Below, in pieces: positions 6,451 to 35,015 of a stretch of DNA of 64,000 bases. Below the pieces are notes generated by a model. That model did not search any database. It saw nothing but the letters and a program-made list of their open reading frames with translations, and was not told the origin of the DNA. Each line of letters opens with the position of its first letter. Position 1 is the first letter of the stretch. A program made the position numbers and the translations under genes. This stretch comes from a virus. The stretch lies in UHGV virus genome UHGV-0101699. One strand, given 5' to 3'.

Positions 6451-7281
6451 CTATTTAATAGTAATGAAAGGAGTGTTTGCGCCCTGTGTCATGTATTGAG
6501 GCAACTGACCATTCCACTTATTGATAGCTTCAAGTTCCATGACATTAGGGTTCTGGCGTAGTGCTTCACCGCGTAATTTAATCGCATCAGCTTCTGCTTG
6601 AGCGCGTTTGCGGATAGCATCAGCTTCACCTTCCGCTTGTTCGCGTAGCATGTTTGCTTCAGCTTTACGTTGCTCGACTTCCTGCTGGCGCTGGAGAGTC
6701 TTCTGGTTCGCGGTAACTTTGGCATTGATGGATTCAATGACAGTGTCAGGGTAGTCAGGTTTCCCTACCCACGACAGACTCAAGACTTCTATGCCTACCG
6801 GTGTCATTTCTTTCTGAATATCTTTGAGTGCATTATCGAGTAGTGCAGCTTTTCCACCGTCAATGAAAGCATCCGTGGTCATGCGGCTAGCAAGTCTGTT
6901 TAAAGAGTCGGCAATCTTCTGGCGAAGATCAGTGTCGGTAATATCATCAACACCTTTCCGATAAGTTTGGAAAACCGTGGTTACCTTGTCGCGATTGACC
7001 AGGTACGCAACACCGATTTTGTGGCCAATTGCAGTACCGTCACTCATTTGAAAAGTGAAAGGTTCATCGTATGTTTTCATCTGCTTAAATGTGGGGAATA
7101 CGTAGAGTTCGGTATTGATGCCCGTCCACTGACGGCCCACGCCAACAACCTCCCCAATTCCCTTGTCTTCGCCTAGTTTGTTGACCTTAATGCCAACGTA
7201 ACCTGGCTCTACACGATCACAACCACTAAGGCCCATCGTACAAATCGCAGCCAGTACTATCGCCAATATACCTTTCTTCAT
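6451..7281 (-). CDS. SPFH/band-7 (HflC/HflK/prohibitin-like) lipoprotein
   Basis: Lipobox LSGC after a signal peptide. The SPFH core is followed by a charged coiled-coil (EQRKAEANMLREQAEGEADAIRKRAQAEADAIKLR), typical of the family. Confidence 0.7.
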   Translation of the reverse strand: MKKGILAIVLAAICTMGLSGCDRVEPGYVGIKVNKLGEDKGIGEVVGVGRQWTGINTELYVFPTFKQMKTYDEPFTFQMSDGTAIGHKIGVAYLVNRDKVTTVFQTYRKGVDDITDTDLRQKIADSLNRLASRMTTDAFIDGGKAALLDNALKDIQKEMTPVGIEVLSLSWVGKPDYPDTVIESINAKVTANQKTLQRQQEVEQRKAEANMLREQAEGEADAIRKRAQAEADAIKLRGEALRQNPNVMELEAINKWNGQLPQYMTQGANTPFITIK

Positions 7282-7484
7282 TACTTATTCTCCTGAGATT
7301 TTTTGAGTGAGTTGATATACCGGCGTCCTGCGATGAGACCTACAACTGGGAACCCAAAAGCCATAAAAAGGCCGATTAACAGAGCCACATCGCTTTTAGC
7401 CGAAACAAGCGAAGGGACCAGCAATCCGTAAACAAAAGCGACTGATAACACAGTCAAAACCGCCATCAGATAACCTTTAATCAT
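7282..7484 (-). CDS. small 2-TM membrane protein, probable NfeD-like partner of the SPFH protein
   Basis: 67 aa with two hydrophobic helices. Its stop abuts the SPFH gene start. SPFH genes are usually paired with an NfeD-type membrane protein. Confidence 0.5.
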
Positions 7485-7514
7485 GTGTGTCCTTACGTTG
7501 TTTTGTTTTCAAAT

Positions 7515-7533
7515 GATAAGTAAGTACTTATAT
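7515..7533 (-). promoter_or_regulatory. copy of dispersed box (GATAAGTAAGTACTTATAT)
   Basis: About 30 bp upstream of the 7484 start, just after the recA terminator. Confidence 0.5.
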
Positions 7534-7551
7534 ATTTTCAAGTATCAAAAT

Positions 7552-7570
7552 AGGCGTCCAATGGACGCCT
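7552..7570 (-). terminator. terminator hairpin AGGCGTCC-aat-GGACGCCT downstream of recA
   Basis: Same stem sequence as the 6416 hairpin. Followed by TATTTTGAT on the minus strand. Confidence 0.7.
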
Positions 7571-7575
7571 TTACG

Positions 7576-13910: not shown

Positions 13911-15080
13911 TCATTTGTTAATAGTCTCCGCAACCTCTGCCAGAATGGCTTCCAGCTTTTCTCCTTCCTCTGGACGGAAGTACAAAATATTCGGGTTAAA
14001 TCCATAGAACACGGTCACGTCCAGGTCTGGCAGATATTCTTTGCGCCCAACAAGATCGGATGGCTTGCTCTTGTTATTAAACAGCGATGTCGCCCGGCTG
14101 CCGCACGTCAGCACGTAAGTTGGACGAACCAGATTTATCTCTTCCCGCATAAAGTCGATAAACTGGCCGATCTCATCTTTGGTGTAGTCTTTTTCCTTAT
14201 CCTTTACCTTTTTACACACGCCTGTGACATACAAATCACCCATACGCAGGTCACCAGAAACCAGCAACTTGGCTTTGAAGTCATCGTAGCCGTTCTCCAT
14301 GAAGTAGCCGGTACGTGCATCATTGCCATTGGCGTTGTCGAGTATGACCATAATTTTTGGCTTAATGCCGATGCTTGGTCGTATCAACTCATCGCCCAGA
14401 CCCATTTCTGCGGCCATGCGAGTCATCAGCACATTGACCTCTGCAGAGCGTTTTGGGTTCATTTCAAATGGGCGTGAAGCTTTCACCGCATCGATCACCA
14501 GATTGCCCATCAGCTCTGCCTGATCGCGCAGACGTTCCGGATCGGTCGCCGGCATACTGCCAGGTTCAATAGAGGCGAATGCACCAACCTTTTGTAGAGA
14601 CTCACGTACTCGGCTGTTACAGGCTCGCTTCTCGACCGCTTCCTCAAATTGCTCAAGTGACTCGAATTTGCCGCCAACTTTCTCACGCGCTCTCATGATG
14701 GCCTGGCAACCATTCTCAGAGCAGCCTTTCACAGCAGAGAATGGCGCATACAGAACCTGGCTGCCGTCTTCCAGCGTGCGGATCTCAATTCGGTTAGATG
14801 ACACGTTAACGTCTGGTGGCAATACGCGAATGCCATAGGTCAGCGCATCCTTAACCAGCCCCTGGTGCTTATCCTCGCCCAGAATGGTGAGAGCAGCAGC
14901 GAAGAACTCAGCAGGGTAATGTGTCTTTAACCACATAGACTGATAGCTGATCAGCGAGTAGGCAACGGAGTGTGATTTGTTGAAGGCATATCCACCGAAC
15001 TTCTCAAAGGCGTCCCATACTTCTTGGGCTTTCTCAGGGCTAAGACCTTCCTGCTCGGAAATAACTTTGGCAATTTTCAT
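13911..15080 (-). CDS. dnaE: DNA polymerase III alpha (DnaE-type), C-terminal part (fingers tip, beta-binding, OB, C-terminus)
   Basis: GYAFNKSHSVAYSLISYQSMWLKTHYPAEFFAA is the hallmark DnaE segment. Alignment with E. coli DnaE places the split between KNG and INAE. Confidence 0.8.
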   Translation of the reverse strand: MKIAKVISEQEGLSPEKAQEVWDAFEKFGGYAFNKSHSVAYSLISYQSMWLKTHYPAEFFAAALTILGEDKHQGLVKDALTYGIRVLPPDVNVSSNRIEIRTLEDGSQVLYAPFSAVKGCSENGCQAIMRAREKVGGKFESLEQFEEAVEKRACNSRVRESLQKVGAFASIEPGSMPATDPERLRDQAELMGNLVIDAVKASRPFEMNPKRSAEVNVLMTRMAAEMGLGDELIRPSIGIKPKIMVILDNANGNDARTGYFMENGYDDFKAKLLVSGDLRMGDLYVTGVCKKVKDKEKDYTKDEIGQFIDFMREEINLVRPTYVLTCGSRATSLFNNKSKPSDLVGRKEYLPDLDVTVFYGFNPNILYFRPEEGEKLEAILAEVAETINK

Positions 15081-15796
15081 GTGTTTTTCCCGTCATTAGC
15101 TTCAAACGCTAGCTTTTTTAAGATATTTGCGATTTGAGTGTTAGAGATGCCGAATTTTTCTCGCAACTTTTCATAGGTTGCGCCAGCCTTGCGCAAGGCG
15201 ACCACCTCAGCTCTTGCTTCAGCATCCAGTTTTTTGGATGCTCTTGAGACAACGATCGGCCCACCAACTCGTGCCCATTTCTTCCCGGTGACGATATGGT
15301 GAATGTAAAGCTCAGTTAAACCATATTCGGCCGCGAGGTCTTTGTTCAGAGCGCCTTCTGACTTTTTAATGCGAATAGCAATGACGACTTCGTTGGTTAG
15401 CTTGGCGTTGTAGCGCCTCTCACCAAACTCAACGGTATCGTGTGCAATGGCGTCAGCCATGTTGTCGACTTGAGTGCCATACGCGAGATTGGAGGGCGCA
15501 TTGTTTGATGGTCTTCCGTCAAGATGACGAATAAGTAAGCCTTCTGGTCGTTCTCCGTGGAATGCAGTTGCTACCAGATAATGGACTGTGCGGTCGCATT
15601 TGACGCCGTTGACGCTTAGTTTCACGCCCAGATGTCCAAAATCATTGATTACGCGAGGTTTGAGGATTTGCCCCTTCTTCACCCATTCGCCCCCATTGGG
15701 GGCTGTTCGTATAACATCTAAAGAGCGAATGCGACCTAAACTGGATGCTTCGTAATAACCTTCAAACTCAGGAATGGATTTCCAAATTTCTTCCAC
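15077..15796 (-). mobile_element. free-standing HNH homing endonuclease gene inserted within dnaE (NUMOD4 + HNH_3 type)
   Basis: EEIWKSIPEFEGYYEASSLGRIRS (NUMOD4-like) and HYLVATAFHGERPEGLLIRHLDGRPSNN (HNH). It sits exactly between the two dnaE parts with ATGA/TGA overlaps. The probable start is a GTG with a GGAG SD. Confidence 0.8.
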
Positions 15797-15798
15797 CG

Positions 15799-18162
15799 TC
15801 AAACTCCAAAATCAACAATATCAGCGTTATCACCAATCGCTTCGTCATAGGTTCTGCGTTTGCCGTCAGAGCACATCAGCTTGGCCTTTTTGTGGACTTC
15901 TACTGTGCTTCCGTTTTCAAGTGACAGTGTCACCCAACCTGCTTGCGCTCGTTCTACAAAATCGCTGCCGATCGCTTTCATCTTATCCATGTTCTTTTTA
16001 CCGATAGCGGAACGCAGAGCGTCAGCCTCAGCCATAGAGAATCCAGCGAGTACGCGAGAGCTTTTCATGATCTGCTCTTGATAGAGTAAAACGCCGTTGG
16101 TTTCTTTAGTTGCTTCCTCAAGACGCGGATGAATTGAATGTGGAGCCATAAAACCTTTTGCCACGGAGACATAGTCGTCCAACATGCCTGACTGAATTGG
16201 ACCTGGTCTGAAAAGCGCAGTTGTGGCCACAATGGTTTTGAAGCTCATTGGCTCGATACCACCACCCAGATCTTTGAGTAGCTTCCTCATGGGGCCGGAC
16301 TCAAGCTGGAACACACCTTGCGTATACCCCGCGGCGAATCCATCAAGTACTTTGCGATCATCCAGTGGGATGGCATCGAGGTTGACGTCCTTACCGGTGC
16401 TCTCTTTGATGTAACGTTTTGCGCTATCCAGCAGATCGAGAGTGGCCAGGCCCAGAACGTCCAGTTTGATCAGCCCCATGGCCTCGCAGTATCGTTTATC
16501 GAATGCGATGCAACGCGCGTCTCCACGTCGCTCTACAGGGGTACGTTCCGTCAGAGGTACGCCAGCAACAATCATCCCTGCAGCATGGCGGCCGAAGCCA
16601 CGCATCAGGTTTTGCAACTTGCTCGCCGCCTTAAATGCGTCCGGATGTTTGGTGGCGTACTTGTCCAGGCTGGCCAGCTGCTCGCGCAGCTCCGACAGAG
16701 ATAAACTGTCATCCTCCAGGGTCTTTAGCTCCTTGGAAACAGCCATATCCGCCGCATCAACTCCATAAATACGCGCTGTGTCGCGCAGTGCGGAAGCGGC
16801 GCCCAGATAAGTGAAGTTCGGAATGCCTGCAACATACTCTTCGCCATATCGGGCATTCAGATACTCGATCACCTCATGGCGCCGCGCCTGGCTAAAGTCC
16901 AAATCCGCATCCGGCAAGTCGAGACGTTCAGGGTTAATGAAACGTTCGAACAGAAGACCATGACGGATTGGGTCAACGTTAGTAATGCCGATGCACCATG
17001 CCACCAGAGAGCCGGCGGATGAACCACGACCTGGCCCGACAGGAATACCAGTCTCGCGACTATGATTCATCAGATCGCGAACCATCAGGAAATAACCGCA
17101 GAATCCCAGGCGAGTGAGCGTTTCCATTTCATACTTGAGGCGATCGACGTAAATGCGGTGCTCGGAAGCTGGTGGCGTGTAGCCAAATTCTTTGTTGCTG
17201 AGACGTTTTCGAAGCCCTGCGACAGCCAGTTTCATCAACGTTGCAGGCTCATCGTCTGCCATTTTTGGCAGCGCCGGCGCCATCTCGTGCCAGCGCCATT
17301 CGCACGCCTTAACAATGGAGTCCTGCGTTGTAGAAGCCATGGCGGCAGACACAGATACGCCCATCCGGACAGAAAACTCTTTCAGAGCCTGCAGCAGATG
17401 ACGGCGACCATTTATTGCATTGTCGCGCTGGTGGGGGATACGCAGCCGGTGTGGCTGATCGACTTTGATATTGTTCATCACCATGTGGGCGATGTCTTTG
17501 ATGTCAGCGTCATCAACCCCTTCGTAATAAGCTGGGTAAAACGCAACGGGCTCGATTTTCAGTGCGCTTGCCACTTTCATGGCTCGCACGTTGATCTGGT
17601 CATAGAATGGCGTAGGGTGTGGATATACGACGCTGTAGAAATTATCGCGTCCACCGGCAGTAATCAGCGCACTAATAATTTTAGCGAAGTCCGGGCGCTG
17701 GAATACGCTGCCGATATCCGAAGTCAGTAACAGTATATTGCCTTTAGCGTATGTAGCCGCCAACTGGTCGAGCGCCAGGCGTGGCACGAAGTAAAACTGC
17801 TCGCGGGTATTGGCTAAAGTCATTAGTTCGCAAATGTCGCGATAACCTTGCTCGTTTTTAATCAGTGCGGTGAAGCAGTAGTTACGTCCACGCTCCAATG
17901 ATTCCATACATCCATTAGACTCTTTAGCCAGTTTAGCCCGGTACTCGTATGTTGGATCGTCGACAACATTCAGCTTAACACCACAGATCACCGCCATCTC
18001 ATCGCCAGCTGCTCGTTGCAGGGGGATAACGCTGGCGATATTCATCGTGTCAGCAGAGATAACCGCGGTATAGCCAGCCTCCTTTGCCACCTTTACTGCG
18101 TGCTCTGCTTTCAGTGCTGATTCTCCCAGGGAAAAATCAGTCCTGACCATCAGTGCTTTCAT
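15799..18162 (-). CDS. dnaE: DNA polymerase III alpha (DnaE-type), N-terminal part (PHP, palm, thumb, fingers)
   Basis: PHP-domain N-terminus. The last ~45 aa (WVTLSLENG...DFGV) have no DnaE counterpart, so they are read-through after the split point. Confidence 0.8.
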   Translation of the reverse strand: MKALMVRTDFSLGESALKAEHAVKVAKEAGYTAVISADTMNIASVIPLQRAAGDEMAVICGVKLNVVDDPTYEYRAKLAKESNGCMESLERGRNYCFTALIKNEQGYRDICELMTLANTREQFYFVPRLALDQLAATYAKGNILLLTSDIGSVFQRPDFAKIISALITAGGRDNFYSVVYPHPTPFYDQINVRAMKVASALKIEPVAFYPAYYEGVDDADIKDIAHMVMNNIKVDQPHRLRIPHQRDNAINGRRHLLQALKEFSVRMGVSVSAAMASTTQDSIVKACEWRWHEMAPALPKMADDEPATLMKLAVAGLRKRLSNKEFGYTPPASEHRIYVDRLKYEMETLTRLGFCGYFLMVRDLMNHSRETGIPVGPGRGSSAGSLVAWCIGITNVDPIRHGLLFERFINPERLDLPDADLDFSQARRHEVIEYLNARYGEEYVAGIPNFTYLGAASALRDTARIYGVDAADMAVSKELKTLEDDSLSLSELREQLASLDKYATKHPDAFKAASKLQNLMRGFGRHAAGMIVAGVPLTERTPVERRGDARCIAFDKRYCEAMGLIKLDVLGLATLDLLDSAKRYIKESTGKDVNLDAIPLDDRKVLDGFAAGYTQGVFQLESGPMRKLLKDLGGGIEPMSFKTIVATTALFRPGPIQSGMLDDYVSVAKGFMAPHSIHPRLEEATKETNGVLLYQEQIMKSSRVLAGFSMAEADALRSAIGKKNMDKMKAIGSDFVERAQAGWVTLSLENGSTVEVHKKAKLMCSDGKRRTYDEAIGDNADIVDFGV

Positions 18163-22281: not shown

Positions 22282-22507
22282 TAATAGCATCCTAATCAAC
22301 AGGTTTCATTTGGAGGTGATGGTACTACCTATTGATATAAAAGTTAATAAAAATGTATCGTAATGTCTTAAACAAAAATAATCAAAAAAATCAACAGAAG
22401 TACCGGATTTTACTAATTTATACCTTATTTCGTGTGATTTATGTGCGATAATTGCCTACAAATAGCCGGATGTAAGACTTTACAATAATAACCGTTGCTG
22501 TAATATC

Positions 22508-22528
22508 GGTAAGTACTTACCATACAAT
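22508..22528 (+). promoter_or_regulatory. perfect palindrome GGTAAGTACTTACC abutting -10 TACAAT, putative operator/promoter of the regulator gene
   Basis: Best copy of the dispersed box. It lies 27 bp upstream of the ATG at 22555, with SD AGGA. Confidence 0.6.
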
Positions 22529-22554
22529 AAGATCACACGAGGATAGTAACTACA

Positions 22555-22935
22555 ATGACAATGGCCGATGAGAAGACCGCTCGTTACGTCGCCTACATCG
22601 ATTCTTTAATCACTGTTTCGCCGAAAAGTCAGTCGGCGATCTCCCGTGAGATTGGTTACAAGAATCCCAACATTTTGTCCCTGATAAAAAAGGGAAGAAT
22701 TCCGCTGCCGGTAGAGAAAGTGCTACCACTGGCAGAAGCACTGAATGCAGACCCAGTACGTCTCATGATGATGGTTCTTGAAGACCGTCAGCCTGAGCTG
22801 GCAGATTTTTTACGAGACCAGGGCATAGCGCCGCTGACTCCGGAAGAACGTGAGGTTCTCGCAGCTTTCCGCAACCGCTTTCCGGCTCAAACTGATGGTG
22901 TTGAGCAGGTTGTGGAAGCAATTAAAAAGCTATGA
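22555..22935 (+). CDS. HTH (XRE/Cro-CI-like) transcriptional regulator, putative
   Basis: The SQSAISREIGYKNPNILSLIKKGR helix-turn-helix pattern is the only + strand gene in this block. It converges on the recombinase gene. Confidence 0.5.
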   Translation: MTMADEKTARYVAYIDSLITVSPKSQSAISREIGYKNPNILSLIKKGRIPLPVEKVLPLAEALNADPVRLMMMVLEDRQPELADFLRDQGIAPLTPEEREVLAAFRNRFPAQTDGVEQVVEAIKKL

Positions 22936-24030
22936 GAAGTTTACTCTGATCAGCTCGGTGGATAGGCGATCTCCCTTCATTTTGTGGTCAATTTCTTCTA
23001 AATCTGGTTGCTCAACAATCGACGAGATGTACGATGAGAAGCTCTCAAGGGCTTCTCGCATCTGATCCATGTAGTCATATCGGTCGTATACACGGTCGAT
23101 ACCTTCCAGACTATGATTCATGATCTTACGTGATACTTCCTGAGAAATATTAAGGGCTGGAAAGTAGCTGCGTGCCGTTCTACGCAGATCACGTGGGGTA
23201 AACGACTCCACTTCCCCAAGCTCTGGTCGCTCTAGAATCCGCCTCAACGCCTGGGCTATTGCAACCTTTGACATTGGCGTATCAGCTTTCTTTTTGTTCG
23301 ACGGGACGAGCCACTGGCTGCCGGCGCCATAAGCAATCAATTCTTCTACGCACTTCCGCATCAGTGAGCTCATCGGAAGGGTGTGCGACCGGGCCGATTT
23401 GTTGCGAGACCCTTGATTCCATACATTTAGCTTAAGGTCGAACTCGCTTACTCTGGCCCGCAGCACTTCATCTGGACGTCTGGCAGCTACGAGGCAAAGC
23501 CTTGCCGCCCATTTCGTGCCTGGACATACGTCGAAATAGTCCCAGACATTCCAGAATACCCAAACCTCTGCGTCCGTCAGGCATCGTTCCCGCGGGGCCG
23601 TCTTCGCGCCGCCGGCAACTTTGTTCAGCGACATATCATTCAGGGGCGATGTTTCGATAATTCCCTGGAAGGCACACCATCCCAGGAACTGCTTCATGAT
23701 GGAAAAAACACGGCGACCCATCACGATCTTCCCTTCAAGGATCAGCGGGTTGACCAGCTGATTCACCATTATTCTATTCAGGTTACTTACTTTTTCCTGA
23801 GCGATATGCGGGAGAACATGTATCAAAACACAATGGACAGCTATCTCGGGCCGGCGGCGAGTTATCAATAATGATAAGCGAGTGAATAACATGAATGCGT
23901 CGGCGAAAGTCAGATCGGCTCCCTGCATCGAGACCGATCTGGCATCCATCTGCGATGCCCGATCCAGATAGGTGATCGCTTCCTGTGACGTGTTTTCCGC
24001 TGCGCGTGCTCTGTCAAACGTGTTTTTCAT
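22930..24030 (-). CDS. tyrosine recombinase / integrase family protein
   Basis: C-terminal catalytic signature HTLPMSSLMRKC...FTPRDLRRTARSY...HSLEGIDRVYDRYDY (R, H-x-x-R, Y). Confidence 0.85.
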   Translation of the reverse strand: MKNTFDRARAAENTSQEAITYLDRASQMDARSVSMQGADLTFADAFMLFTRLSLLITRRRPEIAVHCVLIHVLPHIAQEKVSNLNRIMVNQLVNPLILEGKIVMGRRVFSIMKQFLGWCAFQGIIETSPLNDMSLNKVAGGAKTAPRERCLTDAEVWVFWNVWDYFDVCPGTKWAARLCLVAARRPDEVLRARVSEFDLKLNVWNQGSRNKSARSHTLPMSSLMRKCVEELIAYGAGSQWLVPSNKKKADTPMSKVAIAQALRRILERPELGEVESFTPRDLRRTARSYFPALNISQEVSRKIMNHSLEGIDRVYDRYDYMDQMREALESFSSYISSIVEQPDLEEIDHKMKGDRLSTELIRVNFS

Positions 24031-24052
24031 AATCTGGCCACTGTATGACGCT

Positions 24053-24083
24053 TTTTATACTGTGTTTATATACAGTATATTAG
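24053..24083. promoter_or_regulatory. candidate recombination core site: inverted arms TATACTGT / ACAGTATA around an 8-bp spacer
   Basis: Direct reading (CTTTTTATACTGT-GTTTATAT-ACAGTATATTAGG), immediately upstream of the recombinase start. The lox/dif-like geometry is my interpretation. Confidence 0.35.
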
Positions 24084-24379
24084 GCATTGTTTTTATTGAG
24101 ATCAACCTAAAATACCCTCTTTTGTCTAATGATTCCATACCTACCAAGTATGGAATCATAGAAAGGCCTTTTTTTGAAAATTAGTCATCAGGGCCGTGCA
24201 TTTCCCGCTTGTTTGTTTGCGACATCACCCTTGTCTTTGCGTTATGTCCCATCGTTGTCCGGTGCCAGTTTAGTCATGTTTGCGTCTATGGCTGTCTCGA
24301 TGCCGCCTGGTCTCGAAGGGGGGACTTCGTCAATTCATGATATGATAGCTTTAATGGTATAGCTATGAAGGAATCATAG

Positions 24380-24739
24380 ATGATGACCTTAAAATATTAT
24401 TTACGGCACTGCTTATGGGGATGGTGTGGTTATGGCTATCTGATCTATTTTATAGTGCGCGATATGAATGACGGACTAATTTTTCCTGCCTATGTTCCTT
24501 ATATGCCATTTGTGGTTACATATCTTGTTTTAAGCGCCGTCCTGTACCCATTCTCATATTATACTTCGGAGAAACTAGCCCTTAAGATAATGACCAAACC
24601 CTTTTGGGATCGTCACATTGGCGTGAATAGCGGTGTGTATGGCATGTTCATTATTTTGTGGTTATTTTGCCTGCCGCTTTCGGTACCGTTATTTCTCGTA
24701 TATTTATGCATACGCGCAAAGACTAGATTAAGTGCCTAA
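24380..24739 (+). CDS. small polytopic membrane protein (119 aa, 3-4 TM)
   Basis: Hydrophobicity pattern. Convergent with the toxin-like gene. Confidence 0.45.
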   Translation: MMTLKYYLRHCLWGWCGYGYLIYFIVRDMNDGLIFPAYVPYMPFVVTYLVLSAVLYPFSYYTSEKLALKIMTKPFWDRHIGVNSGVYGMFIILWLFCLPLSVPLFLVYLCIRAKTRLSA

Positions 24740-24803
24740 AAAATATGAAAATTATCGCAATATAACCACGCTACGAATGAGAAAGGCATGGAGCTGCAGG
24801 TAA

Positions 24804-25214
24804 CTACGGGTTTGTTAATTTCTGGAAGGCTGCCGCGTATTTGGCGATGTCGCTCATTTTGGCTGGATCACTGGCTGTTTTGTGTGCCTCTTTCGGGAAG
24901 ATGGCCAGCAGACTATACACGTCCTGAAACTTGGCGTGCTGGGTATAAACGAGGGCGCGGTCGCTTGTACAGTTGAACCTGTTTCGGTGACTATTTCGTT
25001 CTTGCTTGGTGAATAAGAGATGAACGTGGTAAACACGAGAGGAAACTACAGAACCAGGTTCGGTATAGGGGCCATCTTTGCCAAAAACGGCCGGATAAAA
25101 GCCGTTTTTAAAACTCACAAAGTCAGCAAGTAAGGAGGTCTTCAGATCAGGCATTACTCTGAAGACCGGCTCCAAAAATTGGGCGTAACTATCACTGTTC
25201 CATGTGACTTTCAT
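24804..25214 (-). CDS. YafO-like toxin (type II TA mRNA-interferase family), putative
   Basis: Aligns with E. coli YafO as I recall it: ADFVSFKNG/ADFISYKRDG, VYHVHL/VAHIHL, LVYTQHAKFQDVYSLLAIFPKEAHK/LVYCQGAFDEQAWLLIAILKPEPHK, and the AAF tail. Confidence 0.55.
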   Translation of the reverse strand: MKVTWNSDSYAQFLEPVFRVMPDLKTSLLADFVSFKNGFYPAVFGKDGPYTEPGSVVSSRVYHVHLLFTKQERNSHRNRFNCTSDRALVYTQHAKFQDVYSLLAIFPKEAHKTASDPAKMSDIAKYAAAFQKLTNP

Positions 25215-25223
25215 CGATCAGCC

Positions 25224-25841
25224 TTAATGGAAGGAGAAGTTTGCGAAGACGTCCTCATCAATGAGACCTGTCTGCGATTCGATAACCTCAACTTCGTTAA
25301 AGCACTGATTTAAAATCATCAGGAGGTCAGAAACCGCCAGACGGTACTCAGTGATAGCATCACTCAAACGTTTCAGGTACGGATGTGGCAGTTCGGCGTC
25401 ACGGATGAACTTGTTAACGAAGCCTTCTAAACCGCGTATGGACAGGTCAACGTTCTTCAAGTCCTCGTAACGGCTTTCACCGAAAGTATCGCGGATCTGT
25501 TCCGCACTGTAACCTGAAATGTTATGGGTCAACTGGACGTGTTTCGCCGTCAGCTCTGCGAGCCTTTGTTCAATATCCGCAAGTTGAGCTGCGGTGTCAC
25601 TCTCAGCAACCGGAATACCTTCCGTTTGCGGCAGTCTGAACTCATGGGAATCTGCAAAACCGGGCCTCGTCGACCTTGTGATGCCGCCGAAACGAGGACG
25701 CATCTTAAATTTTGTGTGTACACGCTTCGGGAATGCTTTCGGAGTGCTATTTGCATTCGAAAAGCGTGAAGCGTTAGAAGTCACGGTAGCAAGAGCATTG
25801 CTAATGACATTCATATCTTCCAAGCAATTTTCTAAATGCAT
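25224..25841 (-). CDS. hypothetical protein (205 aa) immediately upstream of, and co-oriented with, the YafO-like gene
   Basis: 10-bp gap to the toxin gene. It does not resemble the 97-aa YafN antitoxin. Confidence 0.45.
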   Translation of the reverse strand: MHLENCLEDMNVISNALATVTSNASRFSNANSTPKAFPKRVHTKFKMRPRFGGITRSTRPGFADSHEFRLPQTEGIPVAESDTAAQLADIEQRLAELTAKHVQLTHNISGYSAEQIRDTFGESRYEDLKNVDLSIRGLEGFVNKFIRDAELPHPYLKRLSDAITEYRLAVSDLLMILNQCFNEVEVIESQTGLIDEDVFANFSFH

Positions 25842-25935
25842 AAAACCTCTTTACAGCTAAATGGCTCGTACCTAAGTGTACGCTCTGTTATCAAAAGCGA
25901 CAAATCAAAACGGCCCCAAACGGAGCCGTATTGTA

Positions 25936-27622: not shown

Positions 27623-27710
27623 TGGCGGAGGATAATGGAATCGAACCATCATCGCTTTCGCAATGGGACGGTTTTCAAGACCGCTTGGGCGCCATGCCCT
27701 CTATCCTCCG
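27623..27710 (-). tRNA. tRNA-Ser (anticodon UGA), long variable arm, CCA encoded
   Basis: Folded by hand: 7-bp acceptor CGGAGGA/TCCTCCG, T-arm GGTTCGATTCC, anticodon loop CUUGAAA. Confidence 0.75.
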
Positions 27711-27856
27711 TTCGTTGTGACGCCAGATGCTTATCTTCTGGTTGCTTCAACGAGCTGCAATTCATCACAACGGTAAGGGCATTCAGGGAATCAGATCCGT
27801 CGCGAACAGCCAAAGAGCGCGCCTTCCTTGCTGTCGTCCAAATACCCTTACCGTTG

Positions 27857-27931
27857 TGGCGATGGTGGGTGGATTCGAACCACCGACCAGTTGATTAACA
27901 GTCAACCGCTCTACCACTGAGCTACACCATC
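27857..27931 (-). tRNA. tRNA-Asn (anticodon GUU), CCA encoded
   Basis: GATGGTGTAGCTCAGTGGTAGAGC...CTGTTAATC...GGTTCGAATCCACCCACCATCGCCA. Its acceptor stem differs from that of the host asn tRNA, so it is the phage's own tRNA. Confidence 0.8.
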
Positions 27932-28668
27932 TAAGGTTGACACCGTCAGCCTCTGTCGATTCACGGACTTGTGGGGCTGTATCGCCGATTCACCGGTGTC
28001 GTTCGCAGCAGTCCTACCGCTTTCTGCCACTTGTGCTTTACGTATTCACCAAACGCTTACAAGCCAAGATCTTCAAATACTCTCCGAGGGTTGAGGAGGG
28101 CTTTCTTTCAGATCTAATTGGATGTATGGAATCATTTAATCGTTGTGGCCACGGGGCAGTGACAACAATGGCTATAACCAGAAGGATAATGAATCCGTGA
28201 CCACAACGTTGAGACCACTGGACGGATTAATGTACTTGGCCCTACATGTCTGCCGGTTCTGCCTCTGTGATGCAAAAACCAGTGGTCTCAACGTTGCGTG
28301 CTGGCTCACCTAACCAGCCGGGTTACGTCGCCATTTTTAACCCAAAACTAAACGACATAAGTAACAGAAATGACGTAACAGGATAGACGGTCGGGCCTTT
28401 GGGAGCCGGGATGTGTTGGACATAAAACCCAACCGCCCATTCTGTTACCTCATCGGTAAGGGCACTGGTTAACCAGATGCCCTACCTGCGTTTTGCAATC
28501 ACACTCGCTTAGTGTGTCCCATTTCGGTGACGAGGCTGGAAACTGACCTCGCTGGTGTTTAGCTTTTTAGGCTACTGCCAGGTACTGATTGTCGTTTGCA
28601 GTTATCTTTAAACGTTCAAACAGTCGCGTTTCAACGAAAACAAGCCAATCATAGTTGTATCAATTTAA

Positions 28669-29277: not shown

Positions 29278-29428
29278 TAATTATACCATCTTCAGATATG
29301 CTCTGTAGGAGTCGCCCCGTGGAGCTACAGAAATGTAAGTTACGGGCAAACTTCTTAATCAAGTCATGACAGATGATGAAGCCAAGGGCGACGCCTCCAA
29401 AAAAAGACAATACGATGTATGGAATCAT
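29213..29428 (-). CDS. small membrane protein (71 aa), AT-rich
   Basis: N-terminal TM helix IVLSFFGGVALGFIIC. Overlaps the next gene by ~65 nt, so one of the two starts is uncertain. Confidence 0.35.
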   Translation of the reverse strand: MIPYIVLSFFGGVALGFIICHDLIKKFARNLHFCSSTGRLLQSISEDGIINVINQKSASYDTSSTERYLCS

Positions 29429-32684: not shown

Positions 32685-33851
32685 ATGACTTTGTGGACTG
32701 ACTCATATCAAAGTTCAATTGACTCAATCAGTAATTTTATCGACAATAATTTCACACATTATAATGAAATTCCCGAAAATTTATCTCGCCTAGATGATTC
32801 AGTGTTAGCGGATTGTATAATTGTAGTTGCATGGCGATACTTTAAAAACTTATACATTCATCGCCGAGACTCGCTTAACAAATACACTTCATATAATCAG
32901 AAATTTTTACACCAAGGCAACACCCCTAGCTTACAAGAACTAAAAGATGATAAATTTTACTTCCTAAATAAAATTCTAAGAATATTATTTGAGTACAACT
33001 TTTGGGCTTCTGATGATTTTGGCCCGCCCATGTTCTTAAGCCCTGAAATTCTAGAAAAACTGGACAAGCTAAAACCACCATCAGATTTCCAGGTTAATTT
33101 CATTTGGATCGAGCGATCTATGCCTGCGGCTTTGACAAAAGATTTATTGCTATCCGATAAATTTTCATACTTAACCAAAATTGCAGTTGACGTAGAAAAC
33201 TTCGAAAGCACCATATCTCAAAACATTGAAAATGGGCTTAAAGATGTCGAAAATAAAACGAATGAATTAAGAGAGCAAATCAATGAACTTATACAATCTT
33301 CCAACTCGTCAATACAATCCTTAGACGAATATGATTCCAAACTAAAAGAATATAAAAGTGATTATAATTTTGTTCTGTTGAGCAAAGCATTCTCAAGCTT
33401 ACGAGAAAAAAAAAGAAGAGAATTCATGTTTAATAATTTTATCGTCTTGGTTTTTTCGCTATTTCTAACTTGTATCCCCCTGATTGCCTTAGCGAATCAC
33501 ATAAAAGGCTGGTATATTGTCGAATTAAACTTGAATTCGCTTGCTTATTACTTGCCGCTACTTTCACTAGAGTTGTTAATGTTCTATTTCATGCGCCTTT
33601 ATTATATTGAAGGGAAGGCTATTAAAGCTCAATTGCTTCAGATAGATCAACGCCTTAGTCTGTGTGAGTTTATACATGATTATGTTGAGACCAAAAAGAA
33701 CTCTGGTGCTGAAAAGGAATCCTGGTCGCTTTTTGAGAAGTTGATTTTCAGCCCAATACAGGTTACCTCTGAAAATATACCGTCTTTACTGGATGGTGCA
33801 TCATCTATTGCCGAGTTAGCAGGAAAAGTATTGTCCAAAGATTCTAAATAG
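32685..33851 (+). CDS. AT-rich cargo gene: 388-aa protein with N-terminal soluble domain, coiled coil and two TM helices
   Basis: Opposite strand to its neighbours. GC is markedly lower. Own SD GAGGAAGG and own terminator. TM helices FIVLVFSLFLTCIPLIALA and LAYYLPLLSLELLMFYFM. Confidence 0.6.
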   Translation: MTLWTDSYQSSIDSISNFIDNNFTHYNEIPENLSRLDDSVLADCIIVVAWRYFKNLYIHRRDSLNKYTSYNQKFLHQGNTPSLQELKDDKFYFLNKILRILFEYNFWASDDFGPPMFLSPEILEKLDKLKPPSDFQVNFIWIERSMPAALTKDLLLSDKFSYLTKIAVDVENFESTISQNIENGLKDVENKTNELREQINELIQSSNSSIQSLDEYDSKLKEYKSDYNFVLLSKAFSSLREKKRREFMFNNFIVLVFSLFLTCIPLIALANHIKGWYIVELNLNSLAYYLPLLSLELLMFYFMRLYYIEGKAIKAQLLQIDQRLSLCEFIHDYVETKKNSGAEKESWSLFEKLIFSPIQVTSENIPSLLDGASSIAELAGKVLSKDSK

Positions 33852-33855
33852 CCAT

Positions 33856-33882
33856 GTTGGCTGCCCAAAGAGGGCAGCCAAC
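33856..33882. terminator. bidirectional hairpin GTTGGCTGCCC-aaaga-GGGCAGCCAAC
   Basis: 11-bp perfect stem between convergent genes. Confidence 0.6.
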
Positions 33883-33890
33883 AATACACT

Positions 33891-35015
33891 TCACGAATTA
33901 AACACTTTTATACCGAGAACCTTGCTCTGGAGCTCCAGCTGCTTAGAGTAGGGTTTTGCACGATAGTAGGCTTTGAGAATTTGTTCCTGGGTGGCCTCCC
34001 CGGGATCTAGCCCTTCTTCTCCAAGACAGGCTATTTTCACATTTAACCCTATACTGGCTAATCGTCTGGCGGCCGCCATTGTGTTTCGGATCGCTTGCTT
34101 CTCGCTATCCCACATCATGATGACGTTTCGCAGACCATCAGCCTTTAACGACAGAAACGCGCCCAGTTGGTCTTCTGCGTCTACAGTCGTGTTTCCGGAC
34201 AGATGCATCCCGAACGTGCCAATGGGCTCTACGTAGTCCCGGAGCGTCTCTTCGTCGAATATGGCGCGCTTAACCCCCATGACATCGAAAGCCCCTTCAC
34301 AGACGACGACGGTCTGTTTACCAACTGCGTTATGACCGTTATAGAGAAACCTCCCGGATGCCGGCAGCTGCATAGGGAAGAGATATCGGCGTTCTGCTGC
34401 GCCGGTGACGTCACGCCCCTGGAATGTCTTCATCACCCCATTCAGATCGTAAATCGGTATCAGGATGCGCATATCGAATGCCTGCCCTTTTACCTGATCG
34501 GTATATGGGTCGACATAAGCATGTTTTCCCTCGACGCAGTAACGCAGGTCAAAATATTTGGCCAGCTCCGGGGTAATGTTCCGCTCAACAAGATAGTCCG
34601 GCAGCCGACCGTCAATTGGCAGTTCATAATGCCGCGGTAAAGCCACCGGGCCTTCAAGTTCCACAGCACTGGCCAGCACAACCTCTTCTTTTTTTGGCGC
34701 CCAACCTTGAGACAAGAGTGCGTTATGTACGTACTCCTCAAAGGCACGACGAGACTTACCGCTGTAGTGTTTGAGGAAAACCAGCTTGTTAAATTGAATT
34801 TCTTCTGGGTGATCGCCGGCGAAGCATTTCCCGACGTTGTTGGTCAGGTTGAAATAGACCTTCCAGTTTGTGCTTCCGCATACCGGACATTCTTTGATAT
34901 TCACTTCGCGGCCGCGGGCGCTTACACCGCCGCGACGATAGATGATGCCTTCCATATCCAGCCATTGTTCGAAATCCAGCTCGGACAGTAACTCTTTGAG
35001 GTCACTCATTGTCAT
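33891..35015 (-). CDS. DNA primase (DnaG-like: zinc finger + TOPRIM)
   Basis: CPVCGSTNWKVYF...C zinc ribbon and TOPRIM VVCEGAFDV. A 21-codon upstream ORF (35018..35080) carries the conserved SD and overlaps the primase start as ATGA. Confidence 0.75.
   Translation of the reverse strand: MTMSDLKELLSELDFEQWLDMEGIIYRRGGVSARGREVNIKECPVCGSTNWKVYFNLTNNVGKCFAGDHPEEIQFNKLVFLKHYSGKSRRAFEEYVHNALLSQGWAPKKEEVVLASAVELEGPVALPRHYELPIDGRLPDYLVERNITPELAKYFDLRYCVEGKHAYVDPYTDQVKGQAFDMRILIPIYDLNGVMKTFQGRDVTGAAERRYLFPMQLPASGRFLYNGHNAVGKQTVVVCEGAFDVMGVKRAIFDEETLRDYVEPIGTFGMHLSGNTTVDAEDQLGAFLSLKADGLRNVIMMWDSEKQAIRNTMAAARRLASIGLNVKIACLGEEGLDPGEATQEQILKAYYRAKPYSKQLELQSKVLGIKVFNS

What the first reader, a model, noticed from the sequence alone, without database searches (positions are those of the whole stretch)
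22555..24083. Tyrosine recombinase with adjacent lox/dif-like core site, converging with the putative master regulator gene
Immediately upstream of the recombinase start lies CTTTTTATACTGT-GTTTATAT-ACAGTATATTAGG. Its 8-9 bp inverted arms around an 8-bp spacer give the geometry of Cre/Xer-type core sites. In a phage-plasmid, a recombinase next to its own site is more likely a multimer-resolution system, like P1 Cre-loxP, than an integration system. No host-tRNA 3' fragment is present, and the two tRNAs here are not host-like. The XRE-like HTH gene, with the best palindromic box on its promoter, overlaps the recombinase 3' end.
Basis: inference. Interest (0 to 1): 0.55.

Follow-up and report, generated by a model that had tools for sequence, protein, structure and literature searches.

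The report
SOS-controlled plasmid recombinase; real site nearby
The gene is a genuine tyrosine recombinase of a Klebsiella phage-plasmid that is never found integrated, but the palindrome flagged next to it is a LexA (SOS) operator on its promoter, and the likely recombination site is a longer, conserved palindrome 51 bp further out.

Summary
The sequence facts hold. A 366-aa tyrosine recombinase (22930-24030, minus strand) converges on a 126-aa HTH gene (22555-22935) and overlaps it by 6 bp. The palindrome TATACTGT-N8-ACAGTATA lies at 24056-24079. That palindrome is not a lox/dif-like core. It is a near-consensus LexA box (TACTGTGTTTATATACAGTA, 26 bits) abutting the -10 of the int promoter. 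It is one of only two such boxes in the ~108-kb element. In relatives only CTG...CAG stays fixed, and whole lineages lack the box yet keep int. The better candidate site is ATGATTCCATAC-CTACCAA-GTATGGAATCAT (24129-24159, 12-7-12). A palindrome of this geometry lies upstream of int in 56 of 63 species-representative relatives. Its arms switch to TGACTCCAGAC in both halves where Int drops to 43-50% identity. It also occurs on non-phage megaplasmids, where int is the only conserved neighbour. The protein lacks an arm-binding domain. In 5,426 complete E. coli genomes the module occurs 254 times, always on plasmids. SOS control of such a recombinase is a moderately interesting twist. The site also marks the edge of a cargo hotspot, which holds caf1 in Y. 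pestis pMT1.

The parts
22930..24030 (-). int: 366-aa two-domain tyrosine recombinase (core-binding plus catalytic) with no arm-binding domain
   Evidence: Pfam PF00589 at 1.7e-9 and PHROG integrase at 6e-43. AF2 model has pLDDT 86.8 and an all-helical N-terminus. Foldseek matches lambda Int, Tn1549 Int, XerH, IntI and Cre. R185, R283 and Y315 are invariant, and K211 and H306 >=90% conserved, in a 40-sequence alignment that includes the P4-type outgroup.
24058..24077 (.). LexA (SOS) operator TACTGTGTTTATATACAGTA.
   Evidence: 26.2 bits on a LexA matrix whose training boxes score 13.5-27.3; shuffles reach at most 18.7. One of only 2 boxes above 12 bits in the ~108-kb element. CTG/CAG are invariant and the spacer varies in 17 variants at a fixed 51-53 bp from the palindrome.
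24077..24105 (-). P_int, read by hand: -35 TTGATC (24105->24100), 17-nt spacer, -10 TAATAT (24082->24077). The -10 shares its last base with the LexA box.
   Evidence: Read. Both hexamers are conserved blocks in a 10-lineage alignment of DNA that is about 72-74% identical. The tool's stricter consensus scan (9 of 12 required) did not list it, because it matches 8 of 12.
24129..24159 (.). Candidate recombination core site ATGATTCCATAC-CTACCAA-GTATGGAATCAT: 12-bp inverted arms and a 7-bp asymmetric spacer
   Evidence: Unique in the window, with 0.00 expected. Exact arms occur in 101 viral contigs with variable spacers. A perfect palindrome with >=11-bp arms and a 7-bp spacer lies upstream of int in 56 of 63 species-representative relatives. 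Arm type co-varies with Int clade.
22555..22935 (+). HTH regulator gene (126 aa, no peptidase domain), convergent with int and overlapping it by 6 bp. The homologue in phage-plasmid Cyrano (CYRAN_45) is called the putative master repressor.
   Evidence: The convergent arrangement is kept in all phage-plasmid lineages and is absent from megaplasmids.
22479..22521 (+). HTH promoter (-35 TTTACA, -10 TAATAT) followed by its own operator GGTAAGTACTTACC (22508-22521)
   Evidence: Promoter scan. The operator occurs 3 times exactly and 14 times with <=2 mismatches across the element. It is conserved upstream of the HTH gene in Cyrano, pHCM2 and pMT1, and no copy lies near P_int.
24160..25900 (.). Variable cargo block starting at the outer arm of the site. 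Here it holds a colicin-E1-immunity-like gene (24380-24739 +), a YafO toxin gene (24804-25214 -) and a 205-aa ORF (25224-25841 -).
   Evidence: Pfam. 44 different right flanks were seen among relatives. Similarity is lost 0-6 bp after the arm in 408 of 683 pairs that diverge there. In Y. pestis pMT1 this position holds caf1.

Best explanation
Int is a simple tyrosine recombinase with a core-binding and a catalytic domain and no arm-binding domain. It belongs to a clade found only on plasmids: SSU5/pHCM2/pMT1/pKpn-type phage-plasmids and Erwiniaceae/Yersiniaceae megaplasmids. Its cognate site is inferred to be the 31-bp palindrome at 24129-24159. One Int monomer would bind each 12-bp arm, and strand exchange would occur across the 7-bp asymmetric spacer. 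With one site per replicon, the reaction would be Cre/loxP-like: two directly repeated sites in a plasmid multimer recombine to give monomers. A by-product would be reciprocal crossovers at the site between co-resident relatives, which would explain why the variable cargo starts at the edge of the site. It overlaps the end of the -10 and the start region of P_int, so int is held low in the lysogen and de-repressed by DNA damage. Basis of each step: the recombinase identity and fold come from tool results. The LexA-box match, its position and its conservation, the Int-site association and co-variation, and the exclusively plasmid location also come from tool results. LexA binding, Int binding and cleavage at the 31-bp site, and multimer resolution as the biological role are inferred.
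For: LexA operator. The box scores 26.2 bits, and only one other box in the ~108-kb element scores above 12 bits: 26.8 bits, overlapping the -10 of an unrelated 87-aa gene. The alignment shows only CTG...CAG, the -10, the -35 and the palindrome arms as conserved blocks. 97 relatives carry the box at a fixed 51-53 bp from the palindrome, in 17 sequence variants. In E. coli LF82 the orthologous int rises about 19-25-fold inside macrophages, a condition the authors describe as SOS-inducing. Most Cyrano lytic genes stay at background there, and the lambda-type Gally int does not change (PMC9928086 S1 Table and text). Core site. The 12-7-12 palindrome is unique in the window. A perfect palindrome with >=11-bp arms and a 7-bp spacer lies upstream of int in 56 of 63 species-representative loci. 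Arm TGATTCCATAC goes with Int >=56% identical, and TGACTCCAGAC with Int 43-50%; both substitutions are mirrored in both arms. The site stays beside int in lineages without a LexA box. It also stays beside int on megaplasmids, where int is the only conserved neighbour. The spacer varies and occurs in both orientations relative to int. Non-integrative, simple system. All 254 places in 5,426 complete E. coli genomes are on plasmids. 834 plasmids carry the locus. The clade lacks the PF13356 arm-binding domain present in its nearest outgroup. The N-terminus is all helical. The fold matches lambda Int core/catalytic, XerH, IntI and Cre.
Against: No experiment shows Int acting on the 31-bp site, and no LexA binding has been measured. 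A near-consensus LexA box implies tight repression, which fits poorly with a housekeeping dimer-resolution role needed every generation. However, LF82 data show int at about 5 times local background in LB. The expression rise in macrophages is not specific to SOS, because toxin-antitoxin genes and some other Cyrano genes also rise. The breakpoint clustering rests on non-independent pairs. It could simply reflect purifying selection on an essential site next to dispensable DNA. Three further exact copies of the 12-bp half-site (17898, 28124, 29417) are not explained by a resolution model. The LexA matrix was built from E. coli boxes recalled from memory.
Confidence: 0.65

Rival explanations
1. 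TATACTGT-GTTTATAT-ACAGTATA (24056-24079) is the lox/dif-like core site on which the recombinase acts.
For: It is a perfect 8-8-8 inverted repeat 26 bp from the int start. It is conserved in position in the closest lineages.
Against: It matches the LexA consensus at 18 of 20 positions (26.2 bits). In orthologues only CTG/CAG are invariant, and the outer arm bases are not conserved. It is absent from the 61%-identity phage-plasmid lineage and from all type-B replicons that keep int. An equivalent box sits on another promoter in the same element. Eight-bp arms are short for a tyrosine-recombinase binding element, and palindromes of this size are not rare in the window.
Confidence: 0.03
2. The 31-bp palindrome is the core of an attP. 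Int occasionally integrates the phage-plasmid into a chromosomal or plasmid attB, and SOS induction of int serves excision, as in integrative prophages.
For: The nearest sequence relatives outside the clade are P4/CP4-57-type integrases. SOS-linked int expression is typical of excision. A few carriers are unusually large plasmids of 160-324 kb and could be fusions. Their junctions were not examined.
Against: 0 of 254 places are chromosomal in complete E. coli genomes. There is no arm-binding domain. No Xis-like gene was recognised next to int. Every replicon examined has an intact symmetric site and none has split half-sites. No tRNA-derived sequence is present. The module is also kept on megaplasmids.
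Confidence: 0.1
3. The main role of the LexA-controlled int promoter is regulatory. SOS-induced transcription from P_int runs head-on into the overlapping 3' end of the master-repressor (HTH) gene. It would lower repressor output by transcriptional interference or antisense RNA and so contribute to prophage induction. Recombination would be a secondary function.
For: The genes converge with a 6-bp overlap, so no terminator can lie between them. The arrangement is conserved in all phage-plasmid lineages and is missing from megaplasmids. The HTH protein has no recognisable autocleavage domain, yet Cyrano is induced 39-fold by ciprofloxacin. In LF82, CYRAN_46 lies on the int strand beyond the HTH gene. 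It tracks int expression (log2 4.3 to 10.8) although no LexA box was found before its homologue in the window.
Against: The 61%-identity lineage and the Xenorhabdus/Photorhabdus/Morganella elements keep the convergent HTH gene but have no LexA box at int. A second LexA-boxed small gene offers a conventional antirepressor route, as in N15. HTH transcript levels rise rather than fall in the same samples, and whether the RNA-seq was strand-specific is not stated.
Confidence: 0.15
4. The 31-bp palindrome is not a recombination site. It is a hairpin terminator/insulator or the operator of another DNA-binding protein, and Int acts elsewhere or is inactive.
For: It folds as a stable hairpin on both strands (z -3.6 and -4.7). 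It separates int from highly expressed cargo: CYRAN_43 runs at 723 times background. Extra half-site copies elsewhere suggest a protein that binds single arms.
Against: The arms are conserved in sequence, not merely in pairing, across DNA about 72% identical. They change only together with Int clade. No U-tract directly follows the stem on either strand. The site occurs on megaplasmids whose only shared neighbour is int. The HTH regulator has a different operator. The candidate catalytic residues of Int are invariant.
Confidence: 0.1

Closest known systems
P1 Cre / loxP (phage-plasmid multimer resolution)
   Same: A phage-plasmid that is maintained extrachromosomally. A tyrosine recombinase without an arm-binding domain. 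A single minimal site of two inverted 12-13-bp arms around an asymmetric 7-8-bp spacer, close to the gene. A predicted role in resolving multimers.
   Different: There is no sequence-level relationship. Foldseek to Cre gives E 0.016-0.08 at about 12% identity, and the closest sequence outgroup is the P4-type integrases. The spacer is 7 bp, not 8. The promoter carries a LexA box, which to my knowledge is not described for cre. Activity is untested.
Integron integrase IntI with its LexA-controlled promoter (SOS control of integron recombination; from my own knowledge of Guerin et al. 2009)
   Same: A tyrosine-recombinase gene whose promoter is overlapped by a LexA box. The recombination site lies just upstream of the gene. 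Variable cargo begins right at that site.
   Different: There is no cassette array. Each replicon has one site, and no second or degenerate site was found at the far end of the cargo. The protein has no match to any integron-integrase family model and only a general fold match to VchIntIA. The site is a simple double-stranded-type palindrome rather than attI/attC.
XerH / difH and XerCD / dif-cer systems
   Same: Resolution of replicon multimers at a short palindromic site. XerH is among the best structural matches and the best, although weak, PDB sequence match.
   Different: The recombinase is encoded by the plasmid next to its own site rather than being a host enzyme. The geometry is 12-7-12 rather than 11-6-11. 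No accessory sequences or FtsK dependence are known.
LexA-controlled genes of other phage-plasmids (N15 antirepressor AntC; GIL01)
   Same: Host LexA is used as the DNA-damage sensor of a plasmid prophage (review PMC11652158). The element also has a LexA-boxed small gene elsewhere.
   Different: Here one of the two LexA-controlled genes is the recombinase itself. I found no description of this for SSU5/pHCM2/pMT1-type elements in the searchable literature.
P4 / CP4-57-type integrases (nearest sequence outgroup, 23-34% identity)
   Same: They share the core-binding (PF22022) and catalytic (PF00589) domains, and HMM matches reach E 1e-23 to 1e-35.
   Different: Those proteins carry the N-terminal Arm-DNA-bind_3 domain (PF13356) and integrate into chromosomes. 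This clade lacks that domain and is found on plasmids only.

Membership tests
Tyrosine recombinase superfamily (Pfam PF00589) | Catalytic-domain profile match above the curated threshold | tested here: met
   PF00589 at 38.1 bits against a cut-off of 27.1, E 1.7e-9. PHROG integrase at 6e-43.
Tyrosine recombinase superfamily (Pfam PF00589) | Conserved catalytic residues: Arg, Lys, His/Arg-x-x-Arg, His/Trp and the Tyr nucleophile | tested here: met
   R185, R283 and Y315 are invariant, and K211 and H306 are >=90% conserved, in a 40-sequence alignment that includes the outgroup. R280 occupies the usual His position of the H-x-x-R motif. The residues were assigned by motif pattern, not by residue-level structural superposition.
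Tyrosine recombinase superfamily (Pfam PF00589) | Two-domain fold (core-binding plus catalytic) | tested here: met
   AF2 model at pLDDT 86.8 and pTM 0.77. Foldseek gives lambda Int(75-356) at TM 0.75 on the target, plus Tn1549 Int, XerH, IntI and Cre.
Simple (Cre/loxP-like) multimer-resolution system | Recombinase without an arm-type DNA-binding domain | tested here: met
   No member of the clade has a PF13356 hit, while the outgroup does. Residues 1-57 are predicted to be all helical.
Simple (Cre/loxP-like) multimer-resolution system | Minimal site: two inverted 11-13-bp binding elements around a 6-8-bp asymmetric spacer, one per replicon, next to the gene | tested here: met
The 12-7-12 palindrome at 24129-24159 is the only copy in the ~108-kb element. 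The same geometry is found in 56 of 63 relatives.
Simple (Cre/loxP-like) multimer-resolution system | The recombinase binds, cleaves and recombines the site and converts multimers to monomers | not testable with these tools
   Only indirect support is available: site-protein co-variation and similarity breakpoints at the site edge.
Simple (Cre/loxP-like) multimer-resolution system | Sequence membership in the Cre family | tested here: not met
   There is no PDB sequence hit to Cre. Foldseek to Cre gives E 0.016-0.08 at 10-14% identity. It works like Cre but is not a Cre homologue at family level.
LexA operator (gammaproteobacterial SOS box) | CTGT-N8-ACAG palindrome with an AT-rich spacer, scoring within the range of genuine boxes | tested here: met
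   TACTGTGTTTATATACAGTA scores 26.2 bits. The training boxes score 13.5-27.3, shuffles reach at most 18.7, and the next best site in the element scores 11.2. The matrix was built from boxes recalled from memory.
LexA operator (gammaproteobacterial SOS box) | Overlaps or abuts the core promoter of the regulated gene | tested here: met
   The box shares one base with the hand-read -10 TAATAT. The -35 TTGATC lies 17 nt upstream. Both hexamers are conserved in 10 lineages. The transcription start has not been mapped.
LexA operator (gammaproteobacterial SOS box) | Orthologues conserve the CTG/CAG contact bases while the spacer drifts | tested here: met
   17 variants were found in 97 relatives. The degenerate forms CTGT..CCAG and CTGG..CCAG also occur.
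LexA operator (gammaproteobacterial SOS box) | LexA binding and DNA-damage-inducible expression | tested here: inconclusive
   Published LF82 data show orthologous int rising about 19-25-fold in macrophages, a condition reported to induce SOS. Other stress genes rise as well. No binding data exist.
Integrative phage attP/Int system (lambda or P4 type) | Integrated copies with the site split into attL and attR | tested here: not met
   0 of 254 places are on chromosomes in 5,426 complete E. coli genomes. The site is intact in all loci examined. Klebsiella chromosomes were not surveyed systematically.
Integrative phage attP/Int system (lambda or P4 type) | Arm-binding domain, arm-type sites and an adjacent excisionase | tested here: not met
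   There is no PF13356 domain or beta-sheet N-domain. No Xis-like annotation appears among the neighbours. Arm-type repeats were not searched for exhaustively.
Integron (IntI / attI / attC cassettes) | Cassette array bounded by repeated recombination sites | tested here: not met
   Each replicon has a single site. No second site scoring above chance was found in the cargo of five lineages.
Integron (IntI / attI / attC cassettes) | Integrase belongs to the IntI family | tested here: not met
   Pfam and NCBIfam gave only generic integrase hits. The match to VchIntIA is at fold level only, at E 1e-4.

The most novel reading that the evidence does not exclude
The Int/31-bp-site pair is more than a dimer resolvase. 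It would be an SOS-triggered exchange point through which phage-plasmids of the SSU5/pHCM2/pMT1/pKpn supergroup, and related megaplasmids, swap or acquire the cargo that begins exactly at the site. That cargo includes caf1 (F1 capsule) in Y. pestis pMT1, toxin-antitoxin and immunity genes here, and a very highly expressed moron in E. coli LF82. This would be functionally analogous to, but mechanistically distinct from, an integron platform. At the same time the SOS-driven int transcript could interfere with the convergent master-repressor gene.
Probability: 0.15. Interest if true: 0.7.

Novelty: new member of a known kind. Interest (0 to 1): 0.42.

Why it matters
This recombinase clade is carried by very common and medically relevant replicons: Y. 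pestis pMT1, S. Typhi pHCM2, and hundreds of ~110-kb Klebsiella and E. coli phage-plasmids, some of which carry resistance genes. It is also carried by Pantoea, Rahnella and Erwinia megaplasmids. In the literature I could search, neither its target site nor its regulation is described. A defined 31-bp candidate site with two natural specificity variants, together with a LexA operator on the promoter, gives testable hypotheses. They concern how these elements stay monomeric, why accessory genes pile up at one fixed position, and how DNA damage feeds into their biology. A compact new recombinase/site pair with two arm variants could also be useful as a genetic tool. For the scan itself, the practical lesson is that a CTGT-N8-ACAG palindrome beside a gene start in an enterobacterial element should first be read as an SOS box.

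Tried and rejected
1. Integron-like cassette model. I searched the cargo blocks of five lineages for a second or degenerate 12-7-12 site and found nothing above shuffled expectation. Rejected.
2. The 12-7-12 palindrome as the HTH regulator's operator. The HTH promoter carries a different palindrome (GGTAAGTACTTACC) that is dispersed across the element, with no copy near P_int. Rejected.
3. The palindrome as a known RNA or an intrinsic terminator. There is no Rfam match, and no U-tract directly follows the stem on either strand. Judged unlikely.
4. Spacer flip as evidence of inversion. PhiR41_1 has CTACTAT where Cyrano has ATAGTAG. Spacers turn out to be near-palindromic and occur in both orientations across lineages. 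Canonical recombination would not flip them. Left unexplained and not used as evidence.
5. Sequence search of the PDB with the protein and with a 6-sequence profile. This gave nothing useful; XerH scored E 0.043. A fold search replaced it.
6. The dispersed exact copies of the 12-mer half-site. I checked them for a partner arm and found none. The near-copy inside int encodes the invariant VWNQG motif, so it is a coding coincidence. The other copies remain unexplained.
7. The consensus promoter scan did not list P_int, which matches 8 of 12 positions where 9 are required. I identified it by hand and supported it by conservation.
8. Junctions of the unusually large carrier plasmids (possible cointegrates) were not examined.
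Full report
WHAT IS THERE. The window is a Klebsiella phage-plasmid of the SSU5/pHCM2/pMT1 supergroup ('pKpn' type). The region 22300-24400 is 100% identical to plasmid pKPN20-2 and 99.4% identical to Klebsiella phage pJN2-26. ORF 22930-24030 (minus strand, 366 aa) matches Pfam Phage_integrase above the curated cut-off and PHROG 'integrase' at 6e-43. ORF 22555-22935 (plus strand, 126 aa) is an HTH-type regulator. The two genes converge and overlap by 6 bp, CTATGA. The only tRNAs are at 27623-27931. The geometry alone is not distinctive, however. The window contains 10 perfect inverted repeats with >=8-bp arms and 6-8-bp spacers, against about 3 expected.

THE FLAGGED PALINDROME IS A LexA OPERATOR.
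- Match to consensus. The 20-mer TACTGTGTTTATATACAGTA (24058-24077) matches the enterobacterial SOS-box consensus TACTGTATATATATACAGTA at 18 of 20 positions. I built a position-weight matrix from 20 E. coli LexA boxes recalled from memory, which is a limitation. On that matrix the site scores 26.2 bits. The training boxes score 13.5-27.3, and the best score in 30 shuffled genomes was 18.7.
- Only two such boxes. The whole ~108-kb element (window plus the rest of pKPN20-2) contains exactly two boxes above 12 bits. One is this site. The other (26.8 bits, outside the window) overlaps the -10 of a promoter with a TTGACC -35, directly in front of an 87-aa gene.
- Promoter context. Upstream of int on the minus strand I read -35 TTGATC (24105->24100), a 17-nt spacer, and -10 TAATAT (24082->24077). 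The box begins on the last base of the -10.
- Conservation. A 10-lineage alignment of DNA about 74% identical on average has only these conserved blocks: the int start codon, CTG...CAG, the -10, the -35, and the arms of a second palindrome.
- Variants. 97 relatives carry CTGT-N8-ACAG at a fixed 51-53 bp from the second palindrome, in 17 sequence variants. Most loci lacking an exact match carry CTGT..CCAG or CTGG..CCAG, the usual degeneracy of real LexA boxes.
- Experimental hint. The orthologous int of E. coli phage-plasmid Cyrano (CYRAN_44) goes from log2 5.6 in LB and 6.1 in 6-h medium to 10.3 at 6 h inside macrophages. The authors describe that condition as SOS-inducing. Most Cyrano lytic genes stay at 3-5, and the lambda-type Gally integrase does not change (PMC9928086). 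This is consistent with LexA control but not specific to it, because toxin-antitoxin genes also rise.

THE LIKELY RECOMBINATION SITE IS 51 bp FURTHER OUT.
- The site. ATGATTCCATAC-CTACCAA-GTATGGAATCAT (24129-24159) has 12-bp perfect arms and a 7-bp spacer. It is unique in the window, with a chance expectation of 0.00.
- Conservation. Its arms are 100% conserved in Cyrano, pHCM2 and pMT1, although the surrounding DNA is only about 72% identical. The exact arms occur in 101 viral contigs with several different spacers.
- Independence from the SOS box. A phage-plasmid lineage whose Int is 61% identical has no LexA box but keeps the same palindrome about 45 bp from the int start.
- Systematic sample. 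I sampled Int relatives from one genome per species. In 56 of 63 loci a perfect palindrome with >=11-bp arms and exactly a 7-bp spacer lies just upstream of int.
- Co-variation. Arm type tracks Int phylogeny. TGATTCCATAC goes with Int >=56% identical to the window's: Klebsiella, Escherichia, Salmonella, Yersinia, Kluyvera, Buttiauxella, Chimaeribacter. TGACTCCAGAC goes with Int at 43-50% identity: Pantoea, Rahnella, Erwinia, Ewingella, Hafnia, Xenorhabdus, Photorhabdus, Morganella. Both substitutions are mirrored in both arms.
- Only conserved neighbour. On the Pantoea and Rahnella megaplasmids, which are not phages, the flanking genes are unrelated (siderophore receptor, pagP, ovoA). Int is the only conserved neighbour of the site.
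- Not the HTH operator. The HTH regulator has a different operator, GGTAAGTACTTACC at 22508-22521. That motif recurs across the element (3 exact copies, 14 with <=2 mismatches), and no copy lies near P_int.
- Reading. Strict sequence conservation of the arms, a free spacer, fixed geometry and co-variation with the adjacent recombinase are the signature of a tyrosine-recombinase core site. Binding and cleavage remain untested.

THE PROTEIN.
- Clade. Database homologues form a tight clade at >=43% identity. A gap then separates them from P4/CP4-57-type integrases at <=34% identity. Those integrases carry the N-terminal arm-DNA-binding domain PF13356, and no clade member has it.
- Structure. An AlphaFold model (pLDDT 86.8, pTM 0.77) has an all-helical N-terminus followed by core-binding and catalytic domains. 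Foldseek finds lambda Int core/catalytic (TM 0.75 on the target), Tn1549 Int, XerH, integron IntI and Cre.
- Catalytic residues. R185, R283 and Y315 are invariant, and K211 and H306 are >=90% conserved, in a 40-sequence alignment that includes the outgroup. The protein looks catalytically competent and simple, that is, independent of arm sites.

INTEGRATION OR RESOLUTION. In 5,426 complete E. coli genomes the Cyrano-type module occurs at 254 places in 252 genomes. All are on plasmids and none on chromosomes. 834 plasmids in PLSDB carry the locus. Every copy examined has an intact site. No excisionase is apparent, and no tRNA-derived sequence is present. The phage-plasmid literature also anticipates such recombinases in general terms (PMC7969092). 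The main tension is that a near-consensus LexA box implies tight repression, which suits a damage-induced role better than a housekeeping one. Basal expression does exist in LF82, at about 5 times local background. The LexA box is also a derived feature of one clade only.

THE CARGO EDGE. The DNA beyond the outer arm is hypervariable, with 44 different flanks among relatives. Here it holds a colicin-E1-immunity-like gene, a YafO toxin gene and a 205-aa ORF. In Y. pestis pMT1 it holds the caf1 F1-capsule operon. In Cyrano it holds a gene expressed 723-fold above background. I compared pairs whose int-side flank is >=93% identical and whose far side is unrelated. In 408 of 683 such pairs, similarity is lost 0-6 bp after the arm, and in none is it lost inside the palindrome. 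This fits crossovers at the site, but the pairs are not independent events. Selection on the site would give a similar picture. No second site bounds the cargo, so an integron-like cassette mechanism is not supported.

REGULATORY CONTEXT AND THE MORE SPECULATIVE READING. The convergent, overlapping HTH gene is the homologue of Cyrano's putative master repressor. Cyrano is induced 39-fold by ciprofloxacin, yet the HTH protein has no autocleavage domain. Two LexA-controlled promoters could supply the SOS input: the small 87-aa gene, as a conventional antirepressor route like that of N15, and P_int. Transcripts from P_int must enter the HTH gene in antisense. CYRAN_46 lies on the int strand beyond the HTH gene and tracks int expression. 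However, lineages without a LexA box keep the convergent arrangement. I therefore rate an interference mechanism at about 0.15.

COMPARISON AND VERDICT. Functionally the system resembles Cre/loxP and Xer/dif, and in its regulation it resembles LexA-controlled integron integrases. By sequence it belongs to none of these families. It is an uncharacterised plasmid-specific clade derived from P4-like integrases that has lost the arm-binding domain. I found no description of its site or of its SOS control in the searchable literature. I class it as a new member of a known kind, of moderate interest.

Noticed in passing
window 17898-17909 (-), 28124-28135 (+), 29417-29428 (+); near-copies 23413-23424 (-), 33331-33342 (-): There are three further exact copies of the 12-bp half-site GTATGGAATCAT, against about 0.01 expected. 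All lie within 15 kb of int, and none lies in the other ~75 kb of the element. Two share a longer context (GGATGTATGGAATCATT). The copy in dnaE is conserved in pHCM2 and pMT1, and the copy next to the tRNAs is conserved in Cyrano. None has a partner arm. The near-copy inside int encodes the invariant VWNQG motif. Their function is unexplained.
   Followed up: partly
window 22508-22521; also 42808 (1 mismatch) and 1163, 28671, 37306, 58662 (2 mismatches): The 14-bp palindrome GGTAAGTACTTACC lies directly after the -10 of the HTH gene promoter. It recurs across the ~108-kb element: 3 exact copies and 14 with <=2 mismatches. It is conserved upstream of the HTH gene in Cyrano, pHCM2 and pMT1. It is probably the dispersed operator of the master repressor, reminiscent of the P1 C1 operators.
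   Followed up: partly
L008 about 25884-25903 (pKPN20-2, outside the window): This is the second near-consensus LexA box of the element (TACTGTATATTTAAACAGTA, 26.8 bits). It overlaps the -10 of a promoter for an 87-aa protein with no known domain. That protein also occurs in SSU5 and in integrated Salmonella phages. It is a candidate SOS-controlled antirepressor or moron.
   Followed up: partly
L005 about 6760-8667 (K. pneumoniae plasmid NZ_CP132620): A group II intron (ltrA reverse transcriptase/maturase) is inserted between the LexA-box palindrome and the int start codon, in the int transcription direction. The SOS-box hairpin may have served as the stem-loop that some bacterial group II introns target.
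   Followed up: no
L007 6664-11694 (Y. pestis pMT1): The F1 capsule operon (caf1, caf1A, caf1M, caf1R) begins about 630 bp beyond the 31-bp site. It occupies the same variable slot that holds toxin-antitoxin and immunity genes in the window.
   Followed up: partly
window 15077-18162 (-): dnaE is only 787 aa here, against about 1,172 aa in relatives. A NUMOD4/HNH homing-endonuclease gene (15077-15796) lies directly next to it. This suggests that a mobile endonuclease insertion has split or truncated the polymerase gene.
   Followed up: no
window 33855-33883: This is the only other long palindrome with a 7-bp spacer (TGTTGGCTGCC-CAAAGAG-GGCAGCCAACA). It is GC-rich and lies between convergent ORFs 32685-33851 (+) and 33891-35015 (-). 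It is most simply a bidirectional terminator.
   Followed up: no
L002 4372-4926 (Cyrano CYRAN_43) and window 24380-25841: The cargo gene next to the site in Cyrano is by far the most highly expressed gene of that phage-plasmid in the lysogen, at 723 times background (PMC9928086). In the window the slot holds a colicin-E1-immunity-like gene and a YafO-family toxin gene followed by a 205-aa ORF of unknown function.
   Followed up: no
phage records: The name-giving phage SSU5 itself shows no match of >=60% identity to this recombinase. Only the Klebsiella and Escherichia phage-plasmid records do. SSU5 therefore appears to lack the int module that its plasmid relatives carry.
   Followed up: no
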